Source of the DNA: Octopus vulgaris
Taxonomy: Eukaryota
Length of the DNA stretch: 64,000 nucleotides
NCBI GenBank assembly: GCA_951406725.2
Contig: OX597817.1
Coordinates: 149,978,001 to 150,042,000 of the forward strand
Direction of reading: 5' to 3'
The notes under the pieces were generated by a model that did no database searches, was not told where the DNA came from, and saw nothing but the letters and a program-made list of their open reading frames with translations. Position 1 is the stretch's first letter; every line of letters begins with the position of its first letter. Shown here piece by piece: positions 10,487-61,875 of the stretch. A program made the translations under genes and the position numbers.

Positions 10487-11200
10487 TTAACCCTTAAACA
10501 TTCAGATTATTCTGTCAAAATTAATATTTATTTATTCATATTGTAGGGAAGGCACATGGCTTAGTGGTTAGGGTGTTCGGCTTATGATTGTAAGGTCATG
10601 AGTTCAATTCTCAATGATGTGTTATGTCCTTGAGCAAGACACTTTATTTCACATTGCTCCAGCCCACTCAGCAGGCAAAAATGAGTTGTGCCTATATTTC
10701 AAGGGGCTGGCCTTGTCACACTTGTGTCACACTGAATCTCCCCGAGAATTGCGTTGGGGTTACATGTGTTTATGGAGTGCTCAGCCACTTTCACATTAAT
10801 TTCACGAGCAGGCTGTTTCGGAGTGCTTACATTCATATTTTGAATTAATCATGCATTATCTTATAGCTTCAAGATTTCAATGAATGTCATTGTAGGGTAA
10901 GCGTGAGAGGCTGGATCTGGCCAGTTTGAACATAAAACAGACAGATGCAGCACAAAATTTTGTCAGTAAACAGGTCACTGTCTCAAAGCAACGAAAATAT
11001 TTTGACAAATTAAATTTAAATGTTAAAGTGAAACTAACGGTTTTTGTGTGTTTCTTAAATCATTTATAAACACCTTCCATGCTGCAATTGTTTTCATTCC
11101 AGCACACGATCTCAGATCAAGTCACTCGCTATGCAAGTACATCTCCGTAAGACAGAATATTTTTGGCTGGATATGACTCGTTTAAAAGTTAAAGGGTTAA
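10487..11200. mobile_element. piggyBac-like MITE (M1) carrying nested family C SINE (10547-10822) and hammerhead element (10946-11149)
   Basis: Ends ttaaccctt / aaagggttaa; the M1 body resumes on each side of both insertions. Confidence 0.75.
10959..11009 (+). ncRNA. Degenerate minimal hammerhead-like motif with G3-C8 core
   Basis: tttgtca-GTAAACA-ggtcac..gcaac-GAAA-atat-TT-tgacaaa: 7-bp stem I, palindromic aatatt stem III; G5 appears mutated to A. Confidence 0.5.
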
Positions 11201-38214: not shown

Positions 38215-38444
38215 TTAACCCTTTTGTTACCGTATTTATTTTAAGATGCTCTGTGTTTCTTTCAATTAATTTTGAATATAACAAAGAATTTAGTAAAATA
38301 ACTTGGTTATCATTCAGCTAGTGTTAGGAACATAAAGTGTGACTAAGGTTTGGAGGAAGAATTTAATTCAAAACTTATGAAAACAAAACATTTGTGCTAC
38401 AGAGCCAGAGCCGGTTTCAGCTAGGTTGGTATTGAAAGGGTTAA
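38215..38444. mobile_element. piggyBac-like MITE (M2), reverse orientation
   Basis: ttaa-cccttttgttac..gaaaggg-ttaa. Confidence 0.85.
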
Positions 38445-50293: not shown

Positions 50294-50523
50294 TTAACCC
50301 TTTTGTTACCAACCCGGCTGAAACCGGCTCTGGCTCTGTAGTACAAATACAATGTTTTCATAAGTTTTGAATTAAAATCTTCCACCAAACCTTAGTCACA
50401 ATTTATGTTCCTAACACTAGCTGAATGATAACTAAGTTATTTCACTAAATTCTTTGTTATATTTAAGATTGATTGAAAGAAACACAGAGCATCTCAACAA
50501 AAATACAGTAACAAAAGGGTTAA
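50294..50523. mobile_element. piggyBac-like MITE (M2) inserted at the TTAA of a family D tail
   Basis: catcatcat-TTAA-[ccc..ggg]-TTAA-tgtctattttccatggg shows TTAA duplication. Confidence 0.9.
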
Positions 50524-58250: not shown

Positions 58251-58687
58251 TTAATCCTTATAATACCAACCCACCTCTGACAATCCCTAGTTCTATAATG
58301 CAGTTTTCCTGCTTTAACCCTTTTGCATTTAAACTGGCCATATCTGTCCTAAAATATTCTACTTGTTTTGTGTTCCACCCAGCCAGAGTTGGCCCCTTAC
58401 ACCTACCCTGCAATGACATTCTAAAACTAAACTACTCCATCATAAAAATCTCGGAGCTAAAAGCTAACGAATGATTAATTCAAAGCAATGTCAATAGATA
58501 AGCATTACATTTGACAGAGTAATCTGAATGCTAAAAGGTTAAAGCAATTTAAACCTTCCATCCAAATTCCATATTAATTTATGTTCCAAACATCAGAATT
58601 AACATTCACAAAGTCGTTTTACTAATTCCAAATCAACTGAAACAAATGTGGCATATTTCAGCAGAAACATCATAATGAAAGGGTTAA
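58251..58687. mobile_element. M2-type MITE with a nested M1 MITE (58314-58542)
   Basis: Both bounded by TTAA and ccc/ggg-like termini. Confidence 0.7.
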
Positions 58688-61646: not shown

Positions 61647-61875
61647 TTAACCCTTTCATTACCAACCCAGCTTAAACCGCCTCTGGCTCTGTAATACAAA
61701 TGTGTTGTTTTCAAAAGTTCTGAATTAAAATCTTCCACCAAACCATAGTCCCAATTTATGTTCCTAACAATAGCTGAATGATAACTAAGTTATTTTACTA
61801 AATTCTTTGTTATATTTAATGTAATTGAAAGAAACACAGAACATCTCAAAATAAATACAGTAACGAAAGGGTTAA
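61647..61875. mobile_element. piggyBac-like MITE (M2)
   Basis: ttaa-ccctttcattacc..gtaacgaaaggg-ttaa. Confidence 0.85.

What the first reader, a model, noticed from the sequence alone, without database searches (positions are those of the whole stretch)
10946..11149. ~200-bp insertion with a swapped-core (G3-C8) hammerhead-like fold
The insertion sits in a MITE with an agacaga direct repeat (10939-10945 and 11150-11156). It has a 7-bp stem I (tttgtca/tgacaaa), GAAA, palindromic aatatt and core GTAAACA. One transition would give GTGAACA, and reversing CpG-type decay would give a gtcgc/gcgac stem II. Standard CUGANGA searches would miss this family.
Basis: inference. Interest (0 to 1): 0.7.

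Follow-up and report, generated by a model that had tools for sequence, protein, structure and literature searches.

The report
Decayed retroelement end with swapped hammerhead
This is one decayed copy, among thousands, of the end of a Penelope-like jumping gene whose hammerhead RNA motif has two paired core letters swapped relative to a sister family; intact copies are predicted to cut themselves slowly, which is untested, and this copy likely cannot.

Summary
All claimed features are present at the stated places.

The insert is the terminal repeat plus the first 30 codons of a Penelope-like retroelement. Longer copies carry a reverse transcriptase, a CxxxCxxC linker and a GIY-YIG nuclease (Neptune/Nematis type). 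Copies show inverted 5' partners and two 3' ends.

A homologous sister family has canonical C3-G8, C17 and compensatory stem changes; an older relative keeps G3-C8. So the swap is natural covariation.

Against: this copy has G5A and a broken stem II; a mispaired G3-G8 sublineage still spread (255 matches); cleavage is untested.

Short copies start sharply just before the ribozyme, often after an extra G, and run through the cut site, so they were likely copied from uncut, capped RNA.

Hammerheads in these elements are known. I found natural G3-C8 in no paper I could read, but one key paper was unavailable. This scan noted the swap twice before on other DNA of this genome.

The parts
10487..11200 (.). 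Host non-autonomous DNA element (MITE) with TTAA-CCCT terminal inverted repeats; about 200 bp without its two insertions. 'piggyBac-type' is recalled from its ends, not tested.
   Evidence: Inverted repeat 10487-10502/11185-11200; 1,275 candidates in the genome; empty sites
10543..10830 (+). Separate tRNA-derived, SINE-like insertion in the same host, between 9-bp direct repeats (10534-10542, 10831-10839)
   Evidence: Rfam tRNA match 10555-10616, 30.1 bits; repeat D6
10939..10945 (+). Left copy of the target duplication; 10942-10945 also match the element's own start
10943..10958 (+). Element 5' leader from AGATG: the sharp 5' boundary of short copies; inferred transcription start (rival: 3' splice site)
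10959..10965 (+). Hammerhead stem I, 5' strand
10966..10972 (+). Core positions 3-9 with swapped G3 and C8; this copy has A at position 5 (10968), where the family has G
10973..10992 (+). Extra nucleotide 10973, stem II 10974-10978 / 10988-10992 with 9-nt loop; 5 of 5 pairs in the family, 3 of 5 here (CpG changes at 10977 and 10990)
10993..11002 (+). G12-A13-A14-A15.1, self-complementary helix III (10996-11001) and U17 (11002); predicted cut between 11002 and 11003
   Evidence: numbering by analogy with PMC4209133
11003..11009 (+). Hammerhead stem I, 3' strand
11059..11148 (+). First 30 codons of the retroelement ORF; the start codon is lost in this copy
   Evidence: The same codons continue into the long ORF in L101; differences at 11061-11063
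11092..11149 (+). 'Tail': the roughly 58 nt between the family's two 3' ends (ORF +33 and +91)
11150..11156 (+). Right copy of the target duplication; 11150 also matches the element's end

Best explanation
The insert is a retrotransposed end (terminal repeat, hammerhead motif and first 30 codons) of a Neptune/Nematis-type Penelope-like element; the family's G3-C8 hammerhead is a naturally covaried one that likely self-cleaves only slowly, and this copy is likely inactive. SHOWN: the link to an RT/GIY-YIG ORF, inverted 5' partners, two 3' ends, the family core and stems, covariation against a C3-G8 sister family, and the damage in this copy. INFERRED (about 0.55): RNA starts at a capped site about 16 nt before stem I. 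The element's nuclease nicks AT-rich DNA and its reverse transcriptase starts internally at ORF +91 or +33. When it starts at the site near the RNA's 5' end, it runs off at the cap after 150-210 nt and leaves the short copies; when it starts at the downstream repeat, it gives long copies. INFERRED (about 0.6): the ribozyme needs a dimer through the palindromic helix III or help from protein, and is further slowed by G3-C8 and U17, so most RNA is copied uncut; cleavage is auxiliary, not required for insertion.
For: Carrier: the unit is followed by the ORF at the 5' end and repeated after the ORF and a microsatellite-rich 3' region in L101. GIY-YIG passes Pfam's cut-off (E 9e-5). The ESM Atlas top cluster scores 0.97 and carries HTH_animal 100%, RVT_1 40%, GIY-YIG 28%. 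RT motifs and the C-x3-C-x2-C linker are visible in the L102 translation. Inverted partner within 260 nt upstream in 13 of 29 loci and TA-type 3' flank in 14 of 29. 3' ends of 44 copies at the first 40 listed C1 loci: 22 at ORF +28..+37, 21 at +88..+93, 1 elsewhere, matching the two-site internal initiation shown for an anole element (PMC11167929). Ribozyme: stem II pairing probability 0.99 in real intact copies; 40 of 75 copies keep core and stems. Sister family B has the same position, homologous first codons and the same 3' end, with C3-G8 in 27 of 30, C17 in 27 of 30, stem II pair 4 A-U instead of G-C in 27 of 30, pair 2.1-1.1 G-C instead of A-U, and a different self-complementary helix III (one row mis-parsed by the script was read from the alignment). 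Older family C keeps C8 in 9 of 9 and G3 in 8 of 9 independent copies while position 7 varies. The engineered double swap partly restores cleavage (PMC11167929, PMC8495972). 5' boundary: 3 of 44 copies continue upstream (by eye); G precedes AGATG in 10 of 14 short copies where the element has C or T.
Against: No cleavage data. A G3-G8 mismatch variant has 255 exact matches against 7,728 and is linked to a loop variant, so a probably dead ribozyme still spread. Folding predicts a G3-U17 wobble extending stem I (probability 0.67), which could trap the core. The covariation rests on two or three lineages, so each change is one event. Rfam gives no hammerhead hit even at E 10. Pfam RVT_1 and PDB sequence searches did not hit the ORF. 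The extra G is weaker in the best-hit sample (6 of 14 G, 7 C), and several G cases lie at fold-back junctions where the G may come from the inverted copy. The boundary also looks like a 3' splice site. No intact full-length ORF was found among the 20 loci. No tree separates Neptune from Nematis.
Confidence: 0.75

Rival explanations
1. Same retroelement, but the G3-C8 motif is a vestige: it descends from an active C3-G8 hammerhead, no longer cuts, and persists because it overlaps promoter or protein-binding sequence.
For: 255 G3-G8 copies; predicted G3-U17 trap; every sampled copy reads through the cut site; ribozyme mutants did not affect insertion in vitro (PMC11167929).
Against: Both 3 and 8 changed to a new Watson-Crick pair, which is kept in families A and C (roughly 60-73% identical, flanks included) while position 7, loop II and helix III length vary. 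C17 changed to U, which removes the G3-C17 pairing; PMC3884650 reports, as data not shown, that G3-C8 works worse with C17.
Confidence: 0.25
2. The short copies are ordinary 5'-truncated 3' ends with a truncation hot spot at a 3' splice site or just before the microsatellite tract, not run-off copies of a capped 5' leader.
For: Long copies have a branch-point-like motif, a pyrimidine tract and AG at the boundary; in Drosophila Penelope an intron ends at helix I (PMC4209133); 5' truncation is typical of these elements (PMC8557442).
Against: 0 genomic matches to the one spliced junction I tested; excess of G before AGATG in the position-ordered sample (10 of 14).
Confidence: 0.35
3. The unit is a stand-alone retrozyme or SINE-like family that spreads from its own short master copies as tandem or circular RNA.
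For: Thousands of short copies against 170 candidates for an RT stretch; one locus (L014) holds a short partial tandem; animal retrozymes are proposed to derive from these terminal repeats (bioRxiv 10.64898/2026.07.22.740005).
Against: No head-to-tail array of full units in 29 loci; the unit ends inside the ORF's first codons at the same two sites as long copies; partners are inverted, not tandem.
Confidence: 0.1
4. Chance resemblance to a hammerhead in an AT-rich repeat.
For: No Rfam hit; the window copy folds no better than shuffles.
Against: 3 of 5,000 shuffles; it lies where these elements carry hammerheads; the homologous family has a canonical core with compensatory stems.
Confidence: 0.02

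Closest known systems
Minimal type I hammerheads in the terminal repeats of metazoan Penelope-like elements (Cervera and de la Pena 2014, PMC4209133; main text parts 1-2 of 4 and supplement parts 1-2 of 3 read)
   Same: Type I layout, extra nucleotide before stem II, G10.1-C11.1, palindromic minimal helix III, NUH site, place in the terminal repeat, thousands of solo copies, inverted pairs.
   Different: Core pair is G3-C8. The paper's only named 3-8 variant is U3-A8, and every row of its 56-motif alignment (Fig. S3, as text) begins with C3 or U3.
Poseidon element of Anolis (PAc; Frangieh et al. 2024, PMC11167929; parts 1-2 of 4 read)
   Same: Hammerhead at the terminal repeat/ORF junction; two 3' ends inside the ORF start defining the tail; AT-rich targets; uncut RNA as the main template.
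   Different: PAc has C3-G8, and the swap there is an engineered partial rescue; its ORF starts in stem II, here about 50 nt after the motif; it lacks the zinc-finger-like linker; the tail here is about 58 nt against 30-40.
Neptune/Nematis clades of endonuclease-bearing Penelope-like elements (Craig et al. 2021, PMC8557442; passages read)
   Same: RT followed by CX2-5CxxC linker and C-terminal GIY-YIG, inverted 5' copy, tail, TA bias.
   Different: Clade not resolved by a tree here; the window holds only the non-coding end and 30 codons.
Natural core-variant hammerheads (Perreault et al. 2011, PMC3088659; passages read)
   Same: Natural covariation of the 3-8 pair.
   Different: Reported as U3-A8; G3-C8 does not occur in the passages returned.
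Small hammerhead variants of Penelope-like elements that cleave as dimers (Lunse, Weinberg and Breaker, RNA Biol; not held, only the title seen in a reference list)
   Same: By title, the same class of motif.
   Different: Unknown; it may already list G3-C8 cores.
Animal non-LTR retrozymes (bioRxiv 10.64898/2026.07.22.740005, part 1 of 5 read)
   Same: Short, non-coding, hammerhead-bearing, derived from these terminal repeats.
   Different: Retrozymes are head-to-tail arrays; these copies are solo or inverted and end in the ORF start.

Membership tests
Minimal type I hammerhead of Penelope-like elements | Stems I and II closing the core in type I order | tested here: met
   Intact copies: stem II probability 0.99, stem I mostly above 0.85. 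The window copy keeps only stem I.
Minimal type I hammerhead of Penelope-like elements | U4-G5-A6, A9, G12-A13-A14-A15.1, U16.1 conserved | tested here: met
   Family level: 69-73 of 73 copies at each position. Not met in the window copy (A at 5).
Minimal type I hammerhead of Penelope-like elements | Canonical C3-G8 identity (CUGANGA) | tested here: not met
   G3 71 and C8 60 of 73; exact matches G3-C8 7,728, G3-G8 255, C3-G8 2.
Minimal type I hammerhead of Penelope-like elements | Watson-Crick pair between 3 and 8 | tested here: met
   G-C in families A and C, C-G in family B.
Minimal type I hammerhead of Penelope-like elements | Extra nucleotide between 9 and 10.1; G10.1-C11.1; palindromic helix III; NUH site | tested here: met
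   site is UUU.
Minimal type I hammerhead of Penelope-like elements | Site-specific self-cleavage (as dimer or protein-assisted) | not testable with these tools
   Needs a bench assay; only contigs, no raw RNA reads, were offered.
Rfam hammerhead families | Match to a covariance model | tested here: not met
   No hammerhead hit up to E 10 in the window region or in 3 family A and 3 family B loci.
Endonuclease-bearing Penelope-like element | Single ORF with RT then C-terminal GIY-YIG | tested here: met
   In linked long copies, all with breaks: GIY-YIG above Pfam cut-off; RT by motifs and Atlas neighbours; Pfam RVT_1 not hit.
Endonuclease-bearing Penelope-like element | Terminal repeat on both sides of the ORF, inverted 5' copy, tail | tested here: met
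   L101; 13 of 29 inverted; bimodal 3' ends.
Neptune or Nematis clade | CX2-5CxxC linker before the nuclease | tested here: met
   C-x3-C-x2-C in L052, L051 and L102 translations.
Neptune or Nematis clade | Placement in an RT tree | not tested
   No labelled reference sequences at hand.
Endonuclease-bearing Penelope-like element | Intron in the terminal repeat (present in some members) | tested here: inconclusive
   Acceptor-like sequence at the boundary; 0 matches to one tested junction.
Non-LTR retrozyme | Head-to-tail arrays of full hammerhead units | tested here: not met
   None in 29 loci; one partial tandem in L014.

The most novel reading that the evidence does not exclude
A lineage of Penelope-like elements has fixed a natural G3-C8/U17 hammerhead, until now an engineered rescue mutant, as a slowed but active ribozyme. 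Its thousands of 200-bp copies are complete cap-to-tail reverse transcripts of the uncut 5' leader, giving a genomic record of internal initiation, of the transcription start and of how rarely the ribozyme cuts before insertion.
Probability: 0.3. Interest if true: 0.62.

Novelty: new variant of a known kind. Interest (0 to 1): 0.42.

Why it matters
If intact copies cleave, this is natural confirmation, with a canonical sister family as control, that the hammerhead 3-8 position needs a pair rather than particular letters. It would also mean that CUGANGA-based surveys undercount ribozymes by thousands in a single genome. The genome supplies a ready natural series (G3-C8/U17, G3-G8, C3-G8/C17) for the open question of what hammerheads do in Penelope-like elements. 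The short copies suggest a simple account of why solo terminal repeats outnumber full elements. The window copy itself is an ordinary decayed insertion.

Tried and rejected
Rfam scans: no hammerhead; the miRNA-type hits are microsatellites and inverted pairs.

One spliced-junction pattern, joining a donor-like site upstream to the boundary: 0 matches. Other donors were not tested.

Expression: no RNA holder listed on record. Four runs guessed to be RNA hold contigs of the family, but contigs show no ends or strand. The depth dip over 10944-10976 is confounded by this copy's six mismatches there and is not used.

Copies starting at the cut site: 1 of 112 non-deduplicated matches (L045), in a sample biased towards motif-bearing loci, so no weight either way.

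PDB sequence searches of the ORF: nothing significant. Pfam RVT_1: no hit. No ORF of this family and no family B copy elsewhere in the window.

The MAFFT alignment of families A and B misplaced the loop II gap, so no formal pair count was made from it; pairs were tallied by script.

The two C3-G8 matches were one family B copy and one family A copy with both letters changed.

Literature: searches returned no report of a natural G3-C8 hammerhead; one search was swamped by unrelated sequence strings. The Lunse paper was not held.

Full report
OBSERVATION. The host has TTAA-CCCT inverted ends at 10487-10502 and 11185-11200 and 1,275 candidate relatives; 9 other host copies carry the duplicated stretch once. 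The duplication is at most 7 bp, because its left four letters also match the element's start and its right A the element's end. A tRNA-derived insertion sits separately in the same host.

The insert is a high-copy repeat in a 2.8-Gb genome: 3,834 candidates, 40 scored, best matches 89-95% identical. All 29 other best copies have G at position 5. Among 73 distinct copies spanning the motif, G3 is found in 71, G5 in 72 (this copy is the exception), C8 in 60, G8 in 11 and U17 in 73 (this sample is biased by my searches and includes duplicated regions). Exact 18-letter counts over the genome are 7,728 for G3-C8, 255 for G3-G8 and 2 for C3-G8, with 0 for each reversed control. Real intact copies fold with both stems (stem II probability 0.99), and 40 of 75 copies keep core and stems. 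A relaxed descriptor was met by 3 of 5,000 shuffles. The window copy has 13 differences from the majority, 6 at CpG. It has A at the invariant position 5, 3 of 5 stem II pairs and no start codon, and folds no better than shuffles. By established hammerhead chemistry (my knowledge) it should be inactive.

WHAT CARRIES IT. Four of 29 copies continue upstream into shared microsatellite-rich sequence. Following that sequence led to loci where a reverse transcriptase, a C-x3-C-x2-C linker and a GIY-YIG nuclease lie upstream in the same orientation. The nuclease passes Pfam's cut-off. The 654-aa frame of L102 has Atlas neighbours with HTH_animal, RVT_1 and GIY-YIG, although Pfam RVT_1 and PDB searches did not hit it. 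L101 is nearly complete: a partial unit runs into the ORF, and a full unit follows the 3' region. The last 90 nt of the unit are thus the ORF's first 30 codons. An inverted partner lies upstream in 13 of 29 loci and a TA-type flank in 14 of 29 (three of the 29 share flanks). In 44 copies at the first 40 loci listed on C1, 3' ends fall at ORF +28..+37 (22) or +88..+93 (21), with one elsewhere. These are the marks of Penelope-like elements with the Neptune/Nematis linker (PMC8557442, passages), and the two ends match the two internal initiation sites shown for an anole element (PMC11167929, parts 1-2 of 4). No intact full ORF was seen in the 20 loci.

THE SWAP IS COVARIATION. One of the two C3-G8 matches belongs to a sister family B (3,141 candidates; 340 exact 22-letter matches). 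Its unit has homologous first codons and ends in register with family A, and one locus has a co-oriented ORF remnant 42% identical over 200 residues. In 30 loci it has C3-G8 in 27, C17 in 27 and A-U at stem II pair 4 in 27, where A has G-C; pair 2.1-1.1 is G-C with CpG decay where A has A-U; helix III differs but is still self-complementary with wobbles (one row was mis-parsed by the script and read from the alignment). An older family C, found through and sampled, has a helix III two letters shorter and a variable position 7. Of 18 rows, 4 did not cover the core, 4 had been picked by the G3-C8 pattern itself and one was a duplicate; the 9 left have C8 in 9 and G3 in 8. As family B and all rows of the published metazoan alignment have a pyrimidine at 3 (PMC4209133 supplement), G3-C8 is probably derived. 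Each change is a single event between lineages, so this is strong structural but not statistical evidence.

HOW IT LIKELY WORKS. Engineered C3G/G8C double mutants partly restore cleavage (PMC11167929; PMC8495972, passage). Minimal motifs of this class cleave weakly and as dimers (PMC4209133) or with protein help. G3 next to C17 is reported, as data not shown, to be unfavourable (PMC3884650), and both G3-C8 families have mostly U17; a G3-U17 wobble is still predicted at 0.67. I infer a slow ribozyme. Both short and long copies read through the cut site, so their templates were uncut there, as found in vitro for the anole element. Only 3 of 44 position-ordered copies continue upstream of the AGATG boundary (by eye). 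Among copies with an intact start that stop there, the preceding letter is G in 10 of 14, where the element has C or T; in the best-hit sample it is G in 6 of 14 and C in 7. An untemplated G opposite a cap is recalled from other retroelements, not from a call, and some of these G's lie at fold-back junctions. The reading I favour (about 0.55) is that RNA starts there and that internal initiation at the 5' copy of the ORF start yields short run-off copies. The rival is a truncation hot spot at a 3' splice site; an acceptor-like sequence is present, Penelope has an internal promoter and a 5' intron (PMC2377424, passages), and the one junction I tested had 0 matches.

AGAINST. Nothing here shows cleavage. 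The G3-G8 variant (255 matches) is linked to a loop variant, which points to a sublineage that spread with a broken pair, in line with the ribozyme being dispensable for insertion. Rfam finds neither family. No RNA-level evidence on ends or strand could be had.

NOVELTY. Hammerheads in these terminal repeats are known, and U3-A8 is a known natural variant (PMC4209133; PMC3088659, passages). Six searches and passages of PMC6765202, PMC6155905, PMC13725137 and PMC6962438 gave no natural G3-C8 case. The paper most likely to hold one (Lunse et al., about small variants in these elements) was not available, and figures are not held, so absence from print is not established. Two earlier notes of this scan describe the same swap on other DNA of this genome; they are not independent support, and one prompted my search for family C. 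Verdict: a real, naturally covaried variant of a known ribozyme class in a known kind of retroelement, seen here in a dead copy; interest 0.42.

Noticed in passing
window 10543-10830: tRNA-derived SINE-like insertion between 9-bp direct repeats, nested in the same MITE as the finding.
   Followed up: partly
window 38215-38444, 50294-50523, 58314-58687, 61647-61875: Further short elements with TTAA-CCCT inverted ends.
   Followed up: no
G000 contig C16: Long copies of this family and the G3-G8 variant are concentrated on C16: most of the 40 scored hits for the 3' region and most of the 11 G8 copies in my sample. The first 100 listed G3-G8 matches, on C1-C14, show that the variant is also dispersed.
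   Followed up: no
L121 (G000:C18:35457844): A family A copy with C3-G8, i.e. both letters changed back to the canonical pair; single case.
   Followed up: no
L095 (hit at about 8037, minus strand) and L092 (about 930, minus strand), oriented coordinates: Canonical CUGA-core hammerhead-like motifs from unrelated repeats.
   Followed up: no
L052:627-2509 (minus strand); L055:5194-6799; L096; L103: ORF fragments of other Penelope-like families lie next to copies of this family.
   Followed up: no
L086-L090, L094: Internally deleted copies in which the unit is joined from about ORF +47 to mid-ORF sequence; several are identical over the matched stretch and lie on C27 and C31, suggesting recent duplication. 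L089 and L094 both begin at the same donor-like site about 200-300 nt upstream of the unit.
   Followed up: partly
L104, L105 (C27): Copies sit beside arrays of C2H2 zinc-finger coding sequence.
   Followed up: no
L007, L012, L014, L226: Fold-back junctions recur at stem I and at the AT-rich palindrome just after it, suggesting template switching at these self-complementary sites.
   Followed up: no
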